Shown here: piece after piece, positions 12,345 to 58,256 of the stretch | Layout: every line of letters starts with the position of its first letter | Numbering within the stretch: position 1 is the first letter of the stretch | Assembly: GCA_036273515.1 (NCBI GenBank) | Contig: DASUHM010000049.1 | Location: 963-64,962 of the forward strand | Direction: 5' to 3' | DNA length: 64,000 nucleotides | DNA from: Gaiellales bacterium | Lineage (GTDB): Bacteria > Actinomycetota > Thermoleophilia > Gaiellales > JAICJC01 | Notes under the pieces: generated by a model | What the model was told of the DNA's origin: nothing | The model's database searches: none | The model's input: only the letters and a program-made list of their open reading frames with translations | Made by a program: the position numbers and the translations under genes

Positions 12345-13084
12345 CCGGCGAGCTCCGCGGGGGAGGCGAACCGGAAGCCGACGCCGCGCACGGTGTGGAT
12401 GTAGCGGGGCTCGTGGGCGTCATCGCCGAGCCGGCGGCGCAGGCCGGCAATGTGCACGTCGAGCGTCTTCGTCGACCCGAACCAGTCGACGCCCCACACG
12501 TCGTCCATCAGCTTGTTGCGCGCGAGCACGGTGCCGGCGTGGGCCATCAGCATGTGCAGCAGGTCGAACTCGCGCCGGGGCAGGTCGAGGGTCGAGCCGG
12601 CGTGGGTGGCGACATGGGTGGCCGGGTCGATCGAGACGTCGCCGATCTCGATTGCGGTGGGGGTGGCGGCGGCGGCCGGCGCGGCGCGCTCTCCGGTGCG
12701 GCGCAGCACGGCGCGGATGCGGGCGATCAGCTCGGCCATGCTGAACGGCTTGACGAGGTAGTCGTCGGCGCCGAGCTCGAGGCCGACGACGCGGTCGGTC
12801 TCGAGGCCGCGGGCTGTGAGCATGATGATCGGCACGTCCGAGGTCTGGCGGATCGCCCGGCATACGTCGCGGCCGTCGAGATCGGGCAGGTTCAGGTCGA
12901 GCAGGACGATGTCGGGCTCGCCCCGCCGCACCGACTCGAGCCCGCCGTTCCCGGTCGGCTCGACCGAGACGGCGTAGCCCTCGCGCTCGAGCGCCGAGCG
13001 GAGCGGATCCGAGATGGACGCCTCGTCCTCGATGACCGTCACATGGCCGCGAGTCGCCGCCGGTCGCTGCCCGCCTGCCTCCAT
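12341..13084 (-). CDS. OmpR/PhoB-family response regulator
   Basis: Receiver domain (IVLLDLNLPDLDG, ADDYLVKPF) plus winged-helix output (TVRGVGFRF). 4-nt overlap with the kinase. Start at ATG 13084. Confidence 0.9.
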   Translation of the reverse strand: MEAGGQRPAATRGHVTVIEDEASISDPLRSALEREGYAVSVEPTGNGGLESVRRGEPDIVLLDLNLPDLDGRDVCRAIRQTSDVPIIMLTARGLETDRVVGLELGADDYLVKPFSMAELIARIRAVLRRTGERAAPAAAATPTAIEIGDVSIDPATHVATHAGSTLDLPRREFDLLHMLMAHAGTVLARNKLMDDVWGVDWFGSTKTLDVHIAGLRRRLGDDAHEPRYIHTVRGVGFRFASPAELAG

Positions 13085-13133
13085 GCGGGCGAAGTCTAGG
13101 TGGGGCGTTCCGGAAGCGCTGTGGCCGCGGAAA

Positions 13134-13200
13134 CCGGGGTCTGACCCCGAACGGAACTGCAACGGAAGCGTCACGGCCGCCGTTCGGGGTCTGACCCCGG
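13134..13200. repeat. Inverted repeat: two 21-nt arms built on GGGGTCTGACCCCGAACGG, 25-nt spacer
   Basis: Arm 13134-13154 is CCGGGGTCTGACCCCGAACGG. Arm 13180-13200 is CCGTTCGGGGTCTGACCCCGG. They are complementary except at the central base. The same core recurs at 46282 and 58204. Confidence 0.8.
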
Positions 13201-13523
13201 TATGCAGTCAGCGGCGCCGAATACCGCGCTGGCATAACGATCCATGACCAAGAACTTCCGAGAGCAGCGTGACCGGTATCTGTCGACACTGCGAAGCCAT
13301 GTCGCTGCGCTGGATGGCGAGCTCGAGGTCGTCGCGGGTGTTCGGCGACGACGAGATTCGGATCCGCCTGGGCGAGCTCGAACCCGAACCCGAGCCCGCC
13401 TGACACCCAAACGCGGGAGATACCCGGGCCGATCAGGGCGATGCCGGTAGCGAGCGATCGCCGGTCCGGGGGAGTTCGTACCGCCGACGGAATTACCGCA
13501 ACCTGACGATTCGACTCACGGAA

Positions 13524-13576
13524 ATGCAACAGTTGCCGTTGCATATCTTCACGTTGGCGATCTCGTCGTATACGTT
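13524..13576 (+). promoter_or_regulatory. Candidate operator (ATGCAAC-N7-GTTGCAT) plus candidate promoter TTCACG-17-TACGTT upstream of the Tad-linked TCS
   Basis: Perfect 7-bp inverted repeat at 13524-13544. -35-like hexamer at 13548-13553 and -10-like TANNNT at 13571-13576, in an AT-richer stretch about 110 nt before the regulator's start codon. Confidence 0.3.
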
Positions 13577-13686
13577 GAGAGCGCATCTCCGAGGCGGCCC
13601 GGAGAGCACGACATCGCAATCGGTGCCACGCCGCCCGTACGTCCCCATCCGGCGTGGCCCACGACCCCGAAAGAGGCCCGCTTCAG

Positions 13687-14394
13687 ATGGCAGGATCCAC
13701 CGTGCTCGTCGTCGACGATGAACCCCGCATCGTCGAGTTCCTCACCGAGAACCTCCGCGACGACGACTTCACCGTTCTCACCGCCGCGACCGGCGCAGAG
13801 GCGATCGAGCTTCTCGGTCGCGCCCGTCCCGACCTCGTGCTTCTCGACGTCGTGCTCCCCGACATGAGCGGCTACGAGATCTGCCGCACCGTGCGTGCCG
13901 GCGACGGGATCAACGACCCCTGGGATCCCGATCTCCCGATCATCATGCTGAGCGCGAAGGCCGAGCATGTCGACCGCGTCCGCGGCCTGGTGCGCGGGGC
14001 GGATGACTACGTCACGAAGCCTTTCCACTATCCGGAGCTGCTCGCTCGGATCGGCGCGATTCTCGCGCGGGTGTCCCGCTCGCGCGACCGTGAGGTCATC
14101 CGCCACGGCGACCTGTCCGTGAACACGCTCTCGCGCGAGGTCACGGTCGGCGGCATCAAGGTCGACCTCTCGGCCAAGGAGTACCAGCTCCTGACGACGC
14201 TCGCCTCCGAGCCCGGCCGGGTCTTCACGAAGGCCGAGCTGCTCGAGTCGGTGTGGGGGTTCCGGTCGCAGGGACGCACGCGCACGCTCGACTCGCACGC
14301 GAGCCGGCTGCGCCAGAAGCTCCGCGTCCACTCGGGCTCCGGCTGGCTCGCCAACGAGTGGGGCGTCGGCTACCGCCTGTGCAGGCCGGAGTGA
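13687..14394 (+). CDS. OmpR/PhoB-family response regulator (first gene of the Tad operon)
   Basis: Receiver domain (VLVVDDEPRI, LVLLDVVLPDMSG, ADDYVTKPF) and winged helix (LSAKEYQLL...GVGYRL). Confidence 0.9.
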   Translation: MAGSTVLVVDDEPRIVEFLTENLRDDDFTVLTAATGAEAIELLGRARPDLVLLDVVLPDMSGYEICRTVRAGDGINDPWDPDLPIIMLSAKAEHVDRVRGLVRGADDYVTKPFHYPELLARIGAILARVSRSRDREVIRHGDLSVNTLSREVTVGGIKVDLSAKEYQLLTTLASEPGRVFTKAELLESVWGFRSQGRTRTLDSHASRLRQKLRVHSGSGWLANEWGVGYRLCRPE

Positions 14395-46256: not shown

Positions 46257-46271
46257 CGAGAACGCCGCACG

Positions 46272-46304
46272 CGCACCAAAAGGGGTCTGACCCCGGTTGG
46301 TGCG
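46272..46304. terminator. Bidirectional hairpin after ftsZ built around GGGGTCTGACCCC
   Basis: CGCACCAAAAGGGG-TCTGA-CCCCGGTTGGTGCG. The 14-position arms form 12 Watson-Crick pairs. Lies between convergent genes. Confidence 0.6.
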
Positions 46305-46305
46305 G

Positions 46306-46437
46306 CTAGCCGCGCGGCGGCTCGGACGTCGTCCGGCCGACGACGTGCGCGAAGAGCATCGCGGCGCCCAGCACGCCGCCGATCAGGAGCAGCAGGACGA
46401 GCACGATCGTCCACCCGATGCTGCGTCCGCCGTCCAC
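46306..46437 (-). CDS. Possible 43-aa single-pass membrane peptide
   Basis: A GTG start gives MDGGRSIGWTIVLVLLLLIGGVLGAAMLFAHVV.... Lies immediately downstream of the 46455-46880 gene. Confidence 0.3.
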   Translation of the reverse strand: MDGGRSIGWTIVLVLLLLIGGVLGAAMLFAHVVGRTTSEPPRG

Positions 46438-50104: not shown

Positions 50105-51558
50105 AGCTCATCTACGAGAAGTCGCGCGCGGGCCGGCGGGCGGGCCGCATCCCCGATCCGGGCGTCCAGGTCGCCGAGGTGCCGGCGGAGCTGGCGCGCA
50201 CCACCCCGCCGCGGTTGCCGGAGCTGGCCGAGCCTGAGCTCGTGCGCCACTACACCGAGCTCTCGACGCGGACGTTCGGGATCGACACGGGCTTCTACCC
50301 GCTCGGCTCCTGCACGATGAAGTACAACCCGCGCATCAACGAGCGTGCGGTCGGCCTGCCCGGCTTCGCCGACCTGCACCCCCACCAGGAGGACGAGGGC
50401 GCCCAGGGCGCGCTCGAGCTGATGTGGCGGCTGCAGGAGATGCTGGCCGAGGTGGTCGGCCTCGATGCGGTCACGCTCCAGCCGGCAGCCGGGTCGCAGG
50501 GCGAGCTGACCGGCCTCACGCTCATGCGGGCCCACTTCGCGGACCGCGGCGAGGACCGCACGGAGGTGATCATCCCCGACACCGCCCACGGCACCAACCC
50601 GGCCAGCGTCGCGATGGCGGGCTACACGCTCGTGCGCGTGAAGACCGACGTGCGCGGCAACGTCGACGTCGACGACCTGCGCGGCAAGGTGGGGGAGCAC
50701 ACGGCGGGGCTCATGCTGACCAACCCGTCGACGCTCGGCCTGTTCGAGGAGCGGATCTCCGAGATCGCCGACATCTTCCACTCGGCCGGCGCGCTCCTCT
50801 ACTACGACGGCGCCAACCTGAACGCCGTGTGCGGCATCTCCCGGCCGGGCGACATGGGCTTCGACATCGTCCACTACAACCTGCACAAGACGTTCTCGCA
50901 GCCGCACGGCGGCGGCGGGCCGGGCGGCGGGCCGGTGGCAGTGCGGCGCGACCTCGAGCAGTTCCTGCCGGTGCCGGTGGTCGTCCGCGACGGCGACACT
51001 TTCCGGCTCGAGAGCGACCGGCCGAAGACGATCGGCAAGGTGCGCGGGTTCGGCGGGCCGTTCGGCGTCTTCGTGCGCGCCTACGCGTTCATGCGCATGT
51101 GGGGGCCGGGCCTGCGCGACATGTCCGAGGTGGCCGTCCTGAACGCGAACTACGTGCTGGCGCGGCTGAAGGGCGCATACGACCTGCCCGTCGACCGCCA
51201 CTGCATGCACGAGTTCGTCGTCTCGGCCCGCACCCTCAAACGCGAGCACGGGATCACGGCGCTCGACGTCGCCAAGCGGCTGATGGACCACGGGTTCCAC
51301 CCGCCCACGATCTACTTCCCCCTGATCGTGTCCGAGGCGCTCATGATCGAGCCGACCGAGACGGAGACGCGCGAGACGCTCGACGCGTTCTGCGAGGCGA
51401 TGCTCGCGATCGCGCAGGAGGCCGGCGACGATCCGCAGATGCTGAAGGACGCGCCGCACACGCGGCCGGTGACCCGGCTCGACGAGGCCGAGGCGGCCAA
51501 GCGCCTGCTCGTACGCTACGGGTTCGACGAGCACCCGACGTCCGGGCTAGATGAATGA
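50101..51558 (+). CDS. gcvPB: Glycine dehydrogenase (decarboxylating) subunit 2
   Basis: ATGA overlap. [11 protein letters not shown], and the PLP-lysine context [16 protein letters not shown]. The last codons and stop lie inside the repeat at 51550. Confidence 0.9.
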
Positions 51559-51748
51559 TCCCACACCTCTGCGCACCTGGGCGCCCGGCTGTGAGGGGTG
51601 TTCGGCGTGCTGGTGGGGCTGCGGCTGCGAACCGTCGCATCGCTGTGTCCTCGGTCGCGCCCATACAACCAGGTATGAGCGCTCCCTGCGTCCTCGCGCT
51701 GCCCGGTTCGCAGCCGCCCAGGACACACCGGGCGTGGAATCAGTCATC
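51550..51748 (+). mobile_element. 199-bp MITE-like element filling the gcvPB-HAD intergenic gap
   Basis: Terminal inverted repeats GATGAATGATCCCAC (51550-51564) and GTGGAATCAGTCATC (51734-51748), 13 of 15 complementary. Flanked by TA on both sides. Collinear similarity to 56915-57112. Confidence 0.6.
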
Positions 51749-55483: not shown

Positions 55484-56923
55484 GTGTCGTCCCGTCCCGT
55501 CTGCGTCCGCATGCCGCCCAGCCCGACCGGGCTCTTCCACGTCGGCACGGTGCGCACGATGCTCTTCAACTGGCTCTTCGCCCGCGGCCGCGGCGGCAGG
55601 GTCGTGCTGCGGTTCGAGGACACGGACGTCGCCCGCTCCACCGAGGCCGCCGTCGAGCACGCCGAGGCGGTGCTGCGCTGGCTCGGGATCGACTGGGACG
55701 ACGGGCCCTACCGGCAGACGCAGCGCTACGACCTCTACCGGGCCGCCGCCGAGGACCTGATCGCGCACGGCAAGGCCTACCGCTGCTACTGCACCGAGGC
55801 CGAGCTGGCCGAGGAGCGAGCCCGCCGCCAGGCCGACGGCCGGCCGCTGATCTACAGCGGCCGCTGCCGGCACGCAGCGGCGGCCGAGCTCGAGGCGCTC
55901 GCCGCGGAGGGCCGGCCCGCGGTCGTGCGCCTGGCCCTGCCGGCGTCCGGCACCACCGTCATCGAGGACGTCGTCCACGGCACGGTCGAGTGGGACAACG
56001 CCCTCCAGGGCGACCACGTGATCCTGCGGTCGGACGGGTCGCCGACCTATCAGTTCGCGAACCCGTTCGACGACATCGCCATGGGCGTGACCTACGTGAT
56101 CCGCGGCGAGGACCTGATGCCGTCGACGCCGCGCCAGCTGGCGCTCTACCGCGCGCTCGACGCCCCGGAGCCGGTCTTCGCCCACCTGCCCATGGTGCTC
56201 GGGCCGGACAAGCGCAAGCTCTCGAAGCGGCACGGCGCGATCTCGGTCGAGGAATTCCGCGACGCGGGCGTGATCGCGGATGCGCTCGTGAACTACCTGG
56301 CGCTCGTCGGCTGGAGCTTCGACGACCACACGAACTTCATGACGCGGCCCGAGCTGATCGAGCGGTTCACGCTCGAGCGGGTGACCAAGAGCCCGGGCGT
56401 GTTCGACCCGGAGAAGCTCGAGTGGCTGAACGGCGAGCACCTGCGCGCGCTTGCGCCCGAGACGTTCGTGAAGGAGCTCCAGGACTACCTCGTCTCCGCG
56501 GCCTCGCCGCTGGCCGACCAGCCGGAGCAGGTTGCCGAGGCGGCGCCGCTCGTGCAGGAGAAGATGCGCGTGCTGGGCCAGTTCCCGCGCCTCGCCGGGT
56601 TCCTGTTCGGCCCGCCGGAGCGCGATCCGGCCGCCTGGGAGCGGGTGGGCAAGGACGAGCGCGCGCCGGCGTCCCTGCGGGCCGCCCGCGAGGCGCTCGC
56701 CGAGGTCGATCCGTGGACGGCCGAGGCGATCGAAGCGGCCCTGCACGCCGCCTGCGAGCGGCAGGGCGTGAAGCCGCGCGCGCTCTTCATGCCGGTGCGG
56801 GTCGCGCTCACCGGGAGCACCGTCTCGCCGGGGCTGTACGAGAGCCTGGAGCTGGTGGGCCGGGACGAATCGCTCGCCCGGCTCGACGCTGCGCTCGCCG
56901 ATCTCCCCGCCGTCGATGATTGA
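55484..56923 (+). CDS. gltX: Glutamate--tRNA ligase
   Basis: Class I motifs: a HIGH-type PSPTGLFHVG and a KMSKS-type KLSKRHG. The last codons and stop lie in the repeat at 56915. Confidence 0.9.
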   Translation: MSSRPVCVRMPPSPTGLFHVGTVRTMLFNWLFARGRGGRVVLRFEDTDVARSTEAAVEHAEAVLRWLGIDWDDGPYRQTQRYDLYRAAAEDLIAHGKAYRCYCTEAELAEERARRQADGRPLIYSGRCRHAAAAELEALAAEGRPAVVRLALPASGTTVIEDVVHGTVEWDNALQGDHVILRSDGSPTYQFANPFDDIAMGVTYVIRGEDLMPSTPRQLALYRALDAPEPVFAHLPMVLGPDKRKLSKRHGAISVEEFRDAGVIADALVNYLALVGWSFDDHTNFMTRPELIERFTLERVTKSPGVFDPEKLEWLNGEHLRALAPETFVKELQDYLVSAASPLADQPEQVAEAAPLVQEKMRVLGQFPRLAGFLFGPPERDPAAWERVGKDERAPASLRAAREALAEVDPWTAEAIEAALHAACERQGVKPRALFMPVRVALTGSTVSPGLYESLELVGRDESLARLDAALADLPAVDD

Positions 56924-57112
56924 TTCCACCTCCCCGCGAGCCTGGACGTCAGGCTGTTGGTGCGGGTTCGGACTGTTGGTTGGGGCTGCGCCTCAGCGTC
57001 TGCGTCATCGCAGACGCCTCGGACCGCGGTCAAGCGCATCCACGCTCCCTGCGTCCTTGCGCTGCTCGGTTCGCAACCGCCGAGACCGCACAGGGTCGTG
57101 GAATCGATCATC
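56915..57112 (+). mobile_element. 198-bp MITE-like element downstream of gltX
   Basis: Terminal inverted repeats GATGATTGATTCCAC (56915-56929) and GTGGAATCGATCATC (57098-57112). Internal 9-bp-stem hairpin at 56996-57017. Collinear with 51550-51748. Confidence 0.6.
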
Positions 57113-58194: not shown

Positions 58195-58203
58195 CCGACA
58201 ATC

Positions 58204-58216
58204 GGGGTCAGACCCC
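58204..58216. repeat. GGGGTCAGACCCC palindromic motif copy (extends to CGGGGTCAGACCCCGAACGGG, 58203-58223)
   Basis: Same 19-20 nt as the arms at 13134 and 13180. Lies in a convergent intergenic gap. Followed by GTTGC-N5-GTTGC. Confidence 0.7.
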
Positions 58217-58256
58217 GAACGGGGGCTGTTGCACTCCTGTTGCGAAGTTGTGACGC

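What the first reader, a model, noticed from the sequence alone, without database searches (positions are those of the whole stretch)
13134..13200. Large hairpin-forming inverted repeat built from a recurrent GGGGTCWGACCCCGAACGG motif between two divergent TCS operons
Two 21-nt arms, CCGGGGTCTGACCCCGAACGG (13134-13154) and CCGTTCGGGGTCTGACCCCGG (13180-13200), are complementary except at the centre base. Each arm is itself a palindrome. A 25-nt spacer separates them.

The 13-mer core occurs at least four times in this window (13136, 13186, 46282, 58204). All four sites are intergenic. Three of them share the extended 19-20 nt form. A specific 13-mer is not expected to recur by chance in 64 kb. 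This behaves like a REP/BIME-type palindromic unit, or like a dimeric-protein binding site.
Basis: seen in the sequence. Interest (0 to 1): 0.55.

Follow-up and report, generated by a model that had tools for sequence, protein, structure and literature searches.

The report
REPIN mobile hairpin repeat, RAYT-linked
The 67-base hairpin between the two sensor-regulator operons is one copy of a small palindromic "REPIN" repeat scattered between genes in Gaiellales-type actinobacteria. In related genomes its core also brackets a dedicated tyrosine transposase gene, so it is a new member of a known class of mobile DNA, not a local regulatory site.

Summary
Arms 13133-13154 and 13180-13201 are complementary except at the centre base, with a 25-nt spacer. 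The 13-mer GGGGTCWGACCCC occurs exactly 4 times in the window, against fewer than 0.005 expected under Markov orders 1-5. All four copies are extragenic.

The element is a REPIN, that is, two inverted REP units. A profile built from 33 copies in related Gaiellales/Thermoleophilia MAGs matches 13131-13205 at 77 bits. It also finds a truncated copy at 58196-58245. The copy at 46282 belongs to a second subfamily.

- In 836 kb of high-GC DNA (related loci plus the window), 0 of 190 cores lie in coding sequence.
- Sites are enriched between convergent genes.
- Copies show no target-site duplication.
- Orthologous sites with and without the element exist.

In every related RAYT locus examined, a REP-associated tyrosine transposase gene is bracketed by the same core. 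That gene sits in a conserved slot between mreB and maf. The same core flanks RAYT homologues in Marinobacter.

The repeat lacks the classical GTAG tag. It fits the GGGGWSAS motif that Di Nocera et al. 2013 reported for TIRYT-type transposases.

The source genome's own RAYT and total copy number could not be checked.

Verdict: a new member of a known kind, of modest interest.

The parts
13131..13205 (+). Complete REPIN, two inverted REP units plus spacer. Orientation is defined by the asymmetric spacer.
   Evidence: An nhmmer profile of 33 related REPINs matches at 77.3 bits, E = 3e-23.
13133..13154 (+). Left REP arm, ACC-GGGGTCTGACCCC-GAACGG. The core palindrome is at 13136-13148.
13155..13179 (+). 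25-nt spacer AACTGCAACGGAAGCGTCACGGCCG, which forms the loop of the long hairpin. It contains two approximately 11-nt direct repeats (GGAAsTGYMAC) and is conserved across the family.
   Evidence: The family consensus is AAgTGCAACGGAAgTGTCACGGCCG.
13180..13201 (+). Right REP arm, CCGTTC-GGGGTCTGACCCC-GGT. The core palindrome is at 13186-13198.
58196..58245 (-). Truncated REPIN: one REP unit (core at 58204-58216) plus most of the spacer. The second arm is missing where the convergent glycosyltransferase gene ends.
   Evidence: nhmmer matches profile positions 32-81 at 35.8 bits, E = 2.7e-10. Sequence is and flanking genes.
46273..46303 (.). REP singlet of a second subfamily: core 46282-46294 inside the outer stem GCACCAA/TTGGTGC. 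It lies 25 nt downstream of the ftsZ stop codon, between convergent genes.
   Evidence: The same outer stem plus core occurs at non-orthologous sites in L046, L024 and L086.
13111..13128 (+). Spacer-like segment (CGGAAGCGCTGTGGCCGC, 78% identical to 13163-13180) just left of the REPIN. It may be a remnant of a former tandem unit, or a chance match.
   Evidence: family D1. This attribution is weak.

Best explanation
The 13134-13200 inverted repeat is a REPIN. It is a non-autonomous, roughly 70-nt palindromic element made of two inverted REP units (CCGTTC-GGGGTCWGACCCC-GGTT) around a 25-nt spacer. It belongs to a repeat family dispersed through the extragenic space of Gaiellales/Thermoleophilia-type actinobacteria.

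By analogy with characterised REP-RAYT systems, a single-copy HUH/Y1 'REP-associated tyrosine transposase' (RAYT) would mobilise it. On transiently single-stranded DNA, the REP folds into a hairpin. The RAYT recognises that hairpin, cleaves next to it and rejoins the strands, which copies or moves the element without a target-site duplication.

This copy landed in the 0.6-kb region between two divergent two-component-system operons. That is a minority location for the family. It most probably has no dedicated regulatory role there.

Shown here:
- membership of the repeat family;
- the extragenic bias;
- the absence of target-site duplication;
- presence/absence variation at orthologous sites;
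- physical linkage of the core to RAYT genes in related genomes.

Inferred:
- that a RAYT is present in this particular genome;
- that the RAYT actually cleaves and mobilises this sequence.
For: 1. Family membership. Most were Gaiellales/Thermoleophilia MAGs, with many loci per MAG.
- Thirty-three doublets show the identical 50-nt core-to-core offset.
- They give the consensus aacCGGGGTCAGACCCCGAACGGAAgTGCAACGGAAgTGTCACGGCCGcCGTTCGGGGTCtGACCCCGgTT.
- They occur in both orientations with unrelated outer flanks.
- The window copy matches this profile at 77 bits.

2. Extragenic location. 0 of 190 cores fall in the 69% of 836 kb that a conservative GC3 mask classifies as coding. Sites between convergent genes make up 42%, against about 14% of background gaps.

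3. RAYT linkage.
- L105 610-1173 encodes a protein scoring 86 bits against NCBIfam NF047646, REP-associated tyrosine transposase (cutoff 80). It also hits Pfam Y1_Tnp.
- Its only PDB relative is E. coli TnpA_REP (4ER8), with the HUH motif and the catalytic-Tyr region aligned.
- The gene is bracketed by the exact core at 577-589 and 1261-1273.
- Four further distinct family members, 60-69% identical to the L105 RAYT, are flanked the same way. One upstream copy carries a single mismatch. All lie between mreB and maf.
- L058 (48% identity) has core+GAACGG 32 nt upstream of its start codon.

4. Transposon-type behaviour.
- No target-site duplication was found at any boundary or length tested. This fits Y1/HUH chemistry.
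- Orthologous intergenic sites exist with and without the element: L002 versus L011, and Marinobacter L036 versus L054/L085.
- The stem is kept by sequence identity, not by compensatory change. That is expected for recently copied DNA.

5. The architecture matches the published REPIN definition: two inverted REPs, each with a roughly 14-bp palindrome, separated by a spacer, extragenic, and flanking a vertically inherited RAYT (bioRxiv 10.1101/2021.07.10.451892; PMC5581495).
Against: - The window contains no RAYT, mreB or maf.
- No empty-site allele was found for the 13134-13200 copy itself. The one near-identical strain contig that spans it (L141) carries it unchanged.
- The classical 5' GTAG tetranucleotide, which is important for cleavage in the characterised systems (PMC8266576), is absent.
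- RAYT-flanking copies carry CGTCC/GGACG next to the core, whereas dispersed copies carry CGTTC/GGTT. The exact substrate is therefore uncertain.
- Location between divergent genes is the minority class: 11 of 110 sites.
- No activity of any kind has been demonstrated for this RAYT clade.
Confidence: 0.85

Rival explanations
1. The palindrome pair is an operator for a dimeric transcription factor, for example one controlling the two divergent two-component operons. The other copies would be further members of that regulon.
For: Each core is a perfect 6+1+6 palindrome of the size typical for dimeric helix-turn-helix proteins. The main copy lies in a divergent promoter region 40-90 nt upstream of the left response-regulator start codon.
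Against: - The whole 70-nt unit, including its asymmetric spacer, recurs in both orientations at more than 100 unrelated sites.
- 42% of classified sites lie between convergent gene ends, where no promoter is expected.
- The flanking genes at the three window sites have nothing in common.
- The same core brackets a transposase gene.
- OmpR-type regulators normally bind direct repeats (general knowledge).
Confidence: 0.04
2. It is primarily a structured-RNA element: a transcription terminator, attenuator or mRNA-stabilising hairpin kept by selection for its fold.
For: - The predicted hairpin is very stable.
- The family is enriched at convergent 3' ends.
- At the ftsZ 3' site, close strains carry different but still hairpin-forming GC palindromes, GGGGTC/GACCCC versus GGGGGC/GCCCCC. 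This hints that a hairpin there is useful.
- REPs in E. coli are known to stabilise mRNA and terminate transcription (cited in PMC3733652).
Against: - No T-run follows the stem, and the terminator scan found none.
- The main copy sits between divergent genes, upstream of both.
- There is no covariation beyond shuffled controls in 33 copies. Fifteen of 23 pairs never vary, and the centre pair is non-complementary in 13 of 33 copies.
- Rfam gave only sub-threshold hits to plant miRNA hairpins.
- A secondary, exapted role at some 3'-end copies is not excluded.
Confidence: 0.06
3. It is a conventional MITE derived from a DDE-transposase insertion sequence. The 22-nt arms would be its terminal inverted repeats.
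For: It is short, has terminal inverted repeats, is non-coding and is dispersed.
Against: - No target-site duplication of 2-6 nt was found at any of nine boundary definitions.
- The arms themselves contain a self-palindrome.
- The only gene found bracketed by the same sequence is a Y1/HUH RAYT, not a DDE transposase.
- Singlets, tandem triplets and other subfamilies share only the 13-nt core.
Confidence: 0.03

Closest known systems
REPIN-RAYT systems (Bertels & Rainey 2011; Pseudomonas fluorescens SBW25, E. coli)
   Same: - Two inverted REPs, each built on a roughly 13-14-bp palindrome, are separated by a spacer and fold into one long hairpin.
- The elements are strictly extragenic, and singlets and clusters also occur.
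- The same sequence flanks a RAYT gene.
- The RAYT occupies a conserved chromosomal slot (here mreB-RAYT-maf) across genomes whose RAYTs are 60-70% identical. This indicates vertical inheritance.
   Different: - The host lineage is Actinomycetota (Gaiellales/Thermoleophilia), not Proteobacteria.
- The spacer is fairly conserved here, whereas it is described as highly variable in Pseudomonas.
- There is no GTAG tag.
- The sequence next to the core differs between RAYT-flanking copies (CGTCC) and dispersed copies (CGTTC).
TIRtrons / TIRYT tyrosine transposases flanked by repeats carrying the GGGGWSAS motif (Di Nocera, De Gregorio & Rocco 2013, PMC3733652)
   Same: - One strand of every core reads GGGGTCAG, which fits GGGGWSAS.
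- The repeats flank a RAYT-like Y1 transposase, lack GTAG, can be self-complementary and occur as dimers or clusters.
- A Kiritimatiellia homologue is flanked by separated inverted repeats AAGTGGGGTCAGA ... TCTGACCCTACTT.
   Different: - Here the two half-motifs are fused into a single 13-nt palindrome, and two such palindromes form a REPIN.
- The Gaiellales family itself does not appear in that paper's main text, where 'Actinobacteria' and 'GGGGTC' have zero occurrences. The figures could not be read.
E. coli REP/BIME and TnpA_REP (PDB 4ER8; Ton-Hoang 2012, Messing 2012, Corneloup 2021)
   Same: - The associated protein aligns with 4ER8 across the HUH motif and the catalytic-Tyr region.
- Related genomes contain BIME-like tandem arrays with regular 50-nt spacing (L008, L080).
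   Different: - Similarity to 4ER8 is weak (27 bits).
- E. coli REPs are imperfect palindromes with a bulge and an essential GTAG tag. This core is a perfect palindrome without GTAG.
CGTC-tagged REP superfamily (Di Nocera 2013)
   Same: An unpaired CGT(T)C-like motif lies directly 5' of the palindrome, and units are mostly arranged head-to-head.
   Different: - CGTC REPs have 8-9-bp stems that begin with A/T pairs, 4-5-nt loops and a CCA tail.
- They are not associated with any transposase.
- None of these features applies here.

Membership tests
REPIN (REP doublet) | Two REP units in inverted orientation, each containing a short (~14 bp) palindrome, separated by a spacer and able to form one long hairpin | tested here: met
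   The arms are 22 nt and 95% complementary, with a 25-nt spacer. Each arm holds a 13-nt palindrome. Fold z-scores are -5.4.
REPIN (REP doublet) | Member of a repeated family with many copies per genome | tested here: inconclusive
   The window has three sites (4 cores) in 64 kb. The additional-site density in related loci is about 23 per Mb. The genome-wide count for the source organism could not be obtained.
REPIN (REP doublet) | Confined to extragenic space | tested here: met
   0 of 190 cores lie in GC3-defined coding sequence, which covers 69% of 836 kb. All three window sites are intergenic.
REPIN (REP doublet) | The same repeat flanks a RAYT gene | tested here: met
   This was met in related genomes only: L105, L122-L135 and L058. 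It was also met in Marinobacter (L110, L146). It cannot be tested in the source genome, because the window holds no RAYT.
REPIN (REP doublet) | Cognate RAYT is single-copy, vertically inherited and in a conserved location | tested here: inconclusive
   The mreB-RAYT-maf arrangement is conserved in L105 and in the loci of the four other RAYT proteins looked up. Copy number per genome and congruence with the species tree were not tested.
Classical GTAG-tagged REP | Conserved GTAG tetranucleotide immediately 5' of the palindrome | tested here: not met
   The consensus 5' flank is CCGTTC in dispersed copies and CGTCC in RAYT-flanking copies. No GTAG is present.
TIRYT-associated repeats (GGGGWSAS class) | Repeat flanking a RAYT-like gene carries GGGGWSAS and lacks GTAG | tested here: met
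   Each core reads GGGGTCAG on one strand. The definition is taken from PMC3733652.
RAYT (NCBIfam NF047646 / Pfam PF01797) | Score at or above the curated cutoff, with the HUH motif and catalytic Tyr present | tested here: met
   Against a cutoff of 80 bits, L105 scores 86, L058 scores 85.7 and P0061 scores 90.4. P0006 scores 79.4 and the Marinobacter protein 70.1, both below the cutoff. NHYHL and YVVLNPV align with the HUH and Tyr regions of 4ER8.
Y1/HUH-type mobilisation (IS200/IS605-like) | No target-site duplication at insertion sites | tested here: met
   No excess of flanking direct repeats over expectation was found in 33 REPINs.
Y1/HUH-type mobilisation (IS200/IS605-like) | Transposase binds and cleaves the single-stranded hairpin substrate | not testable with these tools
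   This requires biochemistry.
BIME | Clusters of regularly spaced REPs in alternating orientation | tested here: not met
   The window copy is a single doublet. Triple arrays with 50-nt spacing exist in related genomes (L008, L080).
Intrinsic terminator | GC-rich hairpin followed by a T-run | tested here: not met
   The terminator scan found none in 12950-13750.
DDE-type MITE | Terminal inverted repeats plus a target-site duplication | tested here: not met
   No target-site duplication was found.

The most novel reading that the evidence does not exclude
The 13-nt palindrome GGGGTCWGACCCC may be a deeply conserved recognition module of one RAYT/TIRYT clade.

The same core brackets RAYT homologues that are only 38% identical to each other, in Actinomycetota (Gaiellales) and in Gammaproteobacteria (Marinobacter). 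It also forms abundant extragenic hairpins in Duganella and Parapusillimonas, and exact copies occur in loci from Arenimonas, Gemmatimonadaceae and other MAGs. In a Kiritimatiellia homologue it appears as separated half-sites.

If this reflects one protein-DNA recognition pair, then REP sequences are not always lineage-specific. The pair would have been retained across phyla, or moved between them by horizontal transfer. Either way, a RAYT recognition code could be read directly from these natural variants.
Probability: 0.3. Interest if true: 0.6.

Novelty: new member of a known kind. Interest (0 to 1): 0.35.

Why it matters
REPIN-RAYT systems have been studied almost entirely in Proteobacteria, and the REPIN papers I checked do not mention Actinobacteria. 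This finding documents a clear REPIN family, with a syntenic RAYT between mreB and maf, in the poorly known Gaiellales/Thermoleophilia actinobacteria.

The family lacks the GTAG tag that is important in the characterised systems. It therefore offers a second type of substrate for studying how RAYTs recognise DNA.

On the practical side, these repeats should be masked or annotated in such genomes. Otherwise they can be mistaken for operators or small RNAs, and one related metagenome contig ends exactly at the element's edge, which suggests they can break assemblies.

For the window itself, the result is deflationary. The striking hairpin between the two-component operons is most probably an inserted repeat, not a dedicated regulatory element.

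Tried and rejected
- **Rfam.** Nothing passed the gathering threshold anywhere in the window. At a permissive E-value only sub-threshold plant miRNA hairpin models matched. I treated those as generic-hairpin artefacts.
- **Promoter and terminator scans.** The sigma-70 promoter and intrinsic terminator scans of 12950-13750 found nothing.
- **Literature string search.** Searching for the 13-mer or 12-mer sequence returned only an unrelated meningioma paper.
- **RAYT in the window.** A regex search and a tblastn search for RAYT, mreB and maf in the window found nothing.
- **Source genome.** Exact-protein look-ups returned only short metagenome or Logan contigs (L121, L136-L142). No long contig and no empty-site allele for the main copy were found.
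- **Plasmids.** tblastn of the RAYT against plasmids gave only distant homologues, at most 43% identity, which were not informative.
- **Covariation.** The test for the long hairpin gave no signal beyond shuffles. I rejected the structured-RNA reading as the primary identity.
- **Target-site duplication.** The search was negative, so I rejected the DDE-MITE reading.
- **CGTC-REP membership.** I considered it because of the CGTTC flank. I rejected it after reading the family definition.
- **Nitrincola homologue.** Its RAYT homologue (L143) has no core in its flanks. The core-RAYT link is therefore not universal in the wider protein family.

Full report
**1. The observation**

The repeat finder reports arms at 13133-13154 and 13180-13201. 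They are 22 nt long, 95% complementary and 25 nt apart. The single mismatch is the centre T/T.

The region folds into one long hairpin.
- As RNA: -58.8 kcal/mol, z = -5.4 against 200 shuffles.
- As ssDNA: -30.4 kcal/mol, z = -5.45.

The core GGGGTCWGACCCC occurs exactly four times, at 13136, 13186, 46282 and 58204. No one-mismatch relatives exist.
- Expected from dinucleotide shuffles, allowing up to one mismatch: 0.21.
- Expected from Markov chains of order 1-5 trained on this 73% G+C window: 0.0004-0.005.

The other 13-mers that recur four or more times are low-complexity CGG-type coding words.

Pfam confirms the gene context.
- The main element lies between two divergent OmpR-type response-regulator/histidine-kinase operons.
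- 46282 lies 25 nt after the ftsZ stop codon.
- 58204 lies between a small ORF and a 1205-aa glycosyltransferase gene, which converge.

One detail needs correcting. Only the inner 15 nt of each arm is self-palindromic, not the full 21 nt.

**2. What it belongs to**

Most come from Gaiellales, Gaiellaceae, Thermoleophilia or 'Actinomycetes' MAGs, with many loci per MAG. The window shares 70-76% nucleotide identity with these MAGs in conserved genes.

The loci plus the window contain 261 exact cores. Successive cores have start-to-start offsets of exactly 50 nt in 33 cases and 51 nt in 11 cases.

I oriented the 33 offset-50 doublets by their spacer. They give this consensus:

aacCGGGGTCAGACCCCGAACGGAAgTGCAACGGAAgTGTCACGGCCGcCGTTCGGGGTCtGACCCCGgTT

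The spacer is asymmetric and conserved. It contains two roughly 11-nt direct repeats. Copies occur in both orientations, and the sequence outside the arms is unrelated between copies. They are therefore independent insertions, not segmental duplications.

An nhmmer profile built from these copies was run on the window.
- 13131-13205 matches at 77 bits.
- 58196-58245 on the minus strand matches at 36 bits. This copy has one REP plus most of the spacer, and the other arm is missing.
- The 46282 copy matches by its core only.

The 46282 copy belongs to a second subfamily, GCACCA-NNN-core-NNN-TGGTGC. That form also occurs at non-orthologous sites in L046, L024 and L086. A third subfamily, GAATAAAY-core-GTKTATTC, occurs in five MAG loci.

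**3.

I built a deliberately conservative coding mask from GC3/GC2 periodicity. It classifies 69% of 836 kb of high-G+C DNA (related loci plus the window) as coding. None of the 190 cores in that DNA falls within it.

I classified 110 sites by the strands of their neighbouring genes.

| Flanking gene arrangement | Sites |
|---|---|
| Convergent | 46 |
| Co-directional | 53 |
| Divergent | 11 |

Convergent gaps make up about 14% of background gaps and divergent gaps about 16%. The family therefore prefers 3' ends, as classical REPs do (PMC3733652 abstract). The window's main copy is in the minority class.

**4. Link to a transposase**

A motif search of six-frame translations, followed by tblastn, found RAYT-like ORFs in three loci.

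The L105 protein scores as follows.
- 86 bits against NCBIfam NF047646, 'REP-associated tyrosine transposase' (cutoff 80).
- E = 2.6e-9 against Pfam Y1_Tnp.
- Its only match among solved structures is E. coli TnpA_REP (4ER8). The HUH motif (NHYHL versus EHMHC) and the Tyr region (YVVLNPV versus YIYINPV) align.

The L105 gene is bracketed by exact cores. One lies about 20 nt after the stop codon and the other about 90 nt before the start codon.

A database search found 3234 relatives at E <= 1e-10. Many are named RayT, and some are labelled Gaiellaceae.

I fetched contigs for four of them, which are 60-69% identical to the L105 protein. The gene always lies between mreB (divergent) and maf (convergent). 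It is always flanked on both sides by the core, embedded as CGTCC-core-GGACG. In L125/L126 the upstream copy carries a single mismatch. L105 has the same neighbours.

L058, at 48% identity and 85.7 bits, has core+GAACGG 32 nt upstream of its start codon.

A conserved chromosomal slot and flanking repeats are the published hallmarks of domesticated RAYTs (PMC5581495; bioRxiv 10.1101/2021.07.10.451892).

**5. Behaviour as mobile DNA**

- No target-site duplication was found for any of nine boundary definitions and lengths of 2-6 nt. This is expected for HUH/Y1 chemistry and not for DDE-type MITEs.
- Orthologous intergenic regions exist with and without the element. Examples are L002 versus L011 in Gaiellales MAGs and L036 versus L054/L085 in Marinobacter.
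- In the 33-copy alignment, 89.5% of cells pair, but 15 of 23 pairs never vary. No measure exceeds the shuffled controls.
- The centre bases are complementary in only 20 of 33 doublets.

The hairpin is therefore maintained by recent common descent of the copies. It does not show the compensatory evolution expected of a long-lived structured RNA.

For the main copy itself no empty allele was found. The one near-identical strain contig that spans the region carries it unchanged. Another contig begins exactly at its right edge, which suggests an assembly break at a repeat.

**6. Mechanism**

The best-supported reading is a REPIN mobilised in trans by a RAYT. The REP folds on transiently single-stranded DNA. 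The RAYT recognises the hairpin and its 5' flank, cleaves through its catalytic tyrosine and rejoins the strands.

Shown here:
- family membership;
- extragenic bias;
- RAYT linkage in relatives;
- no target-site duplication;
- presence/absence variation.

Inferred:
- that this genome has the RAYT;
- that the RAYT acts on this sequence.

The element's position 40-90 nt upstream of the left response-regulator start codon could influence transcription. No promoter or terminator consensus overlaps it, and nothing indicates a dedicated role.

Some copies at 3' ends may have been co-opted as hairpins. At the ftsZ 3' site, strains with identical FtsZ carry four variants:
- the exact core;
- a degenerate core;
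- GGGGGCTGACCCC;
- GGGGGGCTGCCCCC, which looks like a compensatory pair of changes.

**7. Comparison with what is known**

The architecture matches the REPIN definition. It fails one feature of classical REPs, because there is no GTAG tag. It does not match the CGTC superfamily either.

It does match the class that Di Nocera et al. 2013 called TIRtrons/TIRYT. These are RAYT-like genes flanked by non-GTAG repeats sharing GGGGWSAS, which can be self-complementary and organised as dimers or clusters. One strand of every core reads GGGGTCAG.

Consistent with this, the core is not restricted to actinobacteria.
- Hairpins of the form core-NNNN-core (35 cases, 33 with complementary centres) occur mostly in non-actinobacterial loci: Marinobacter, Duganella, Parapusillimonas, Arenimonas and others.
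- Two Marinobacter RAYT homologues, one of them 38% identical to the Gaiellales protein, are bracketed by core doublets with a 40-nt offset.
- A Kiritimatiellia homologue has separated half-site repeats.
- A Nitrincola homologue has none.

**8. Verdict**

It is a new member of a known kind: a non-GTAG REPIN family with a syntenic RAYT in Gaiellales/Thermoleophilia.

Interest is modest. The most novel reading still open is that the 13-nt core is a RAYT recognition module conserved or exchanged across phyla.

The main limitation is that only 64 kb of the source genome was available. Its own RAYT and copy number remain unverified.

Noticed in passing
window 51550-51748 and 56915-57112: A second, unrelated repeat family. 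It is a MITE-like element of about 199 nt with terminal inverted repeats GATGAWTGATYCCAC ... GTGGAATCRNTCATC. It occurs twice in the window and is 82-87% identical to segments of L059, L034 and L024, all from a Thermoleophilia MAG. There is no tRNA or Rfam hit.
   Followed up: partly
window 46257-46306; L136-L140: Strains with identical FtsZ protein differ in the hairpin just after ftsZ. The variants are the exact REP core with outer stem (window, L140), a degenerate core (L138), GGGGGCTGACCCC (L136, L139) and GGGGGGCTGCCCCC (L137). The last looks like compensatory change that preserves a hairpin, and may indicate an exapted 3'-end structure.
   Followed up: partly
L122-L135, L105: In Gaiellaceae-type genomes the RAYT gene sits in a conserved slot: ndk - methyltransferase - maf (convergent) | RAYT | mreB - mreC (divergent). 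This holds across RAYT proteins that are only 60-70% identical.
   Followed up: yes
L110 6134-7013; L146 406-1259; L036; L093/L109/L119: The same 13-nt core builds abundant extragenic hairpins (core-NNNN-core) and 40-nt-offset doublets in Marinobacter, and hairpins in Parapusillimonas, Duganella and others. In Marinobacter the doublets bracket RAYT homologues on both sides.
   Followed up: partly
L144 ~400-560 and 1300-1330: A Kiritimatiellia RAYT homologue is flanked by separated inverted repeats, AAGTGGGGTCAGA (twice) upstream and TCTGACCCTACTT (twice) downstream. These are half-sites of the core and fit the GGGGWSAS type.
   Followed up: no
L028 3332, L030 2757, L061 2938, L068 6063, L103 2930; L046 and L024: Further core-bearing subfamilies exist. 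GAATAAAY-core-GTKTATTC forms a 29-nt palindrome with an AT-rich outer stem at non-orthologous sites. A separate palindrome, CCGGTGCCTGGCACCGG, lies next to subfamily-2 copies.
   Followed up: no
L142 position 1 (= window 13200): A metagenome contig from a near-identical strain starts exactly at the right edge of the REPIN. This suggests the repeat breaks short-read assemblies.
   Followed up: no
window 13244-13450: A 68-aa ORF lies in the 0.6-kb gap between the two operons. It has no Pfam match and is conserved nearly base-for-base in L141 and L142. Whether it is coding is unknown.
   Followed up: no
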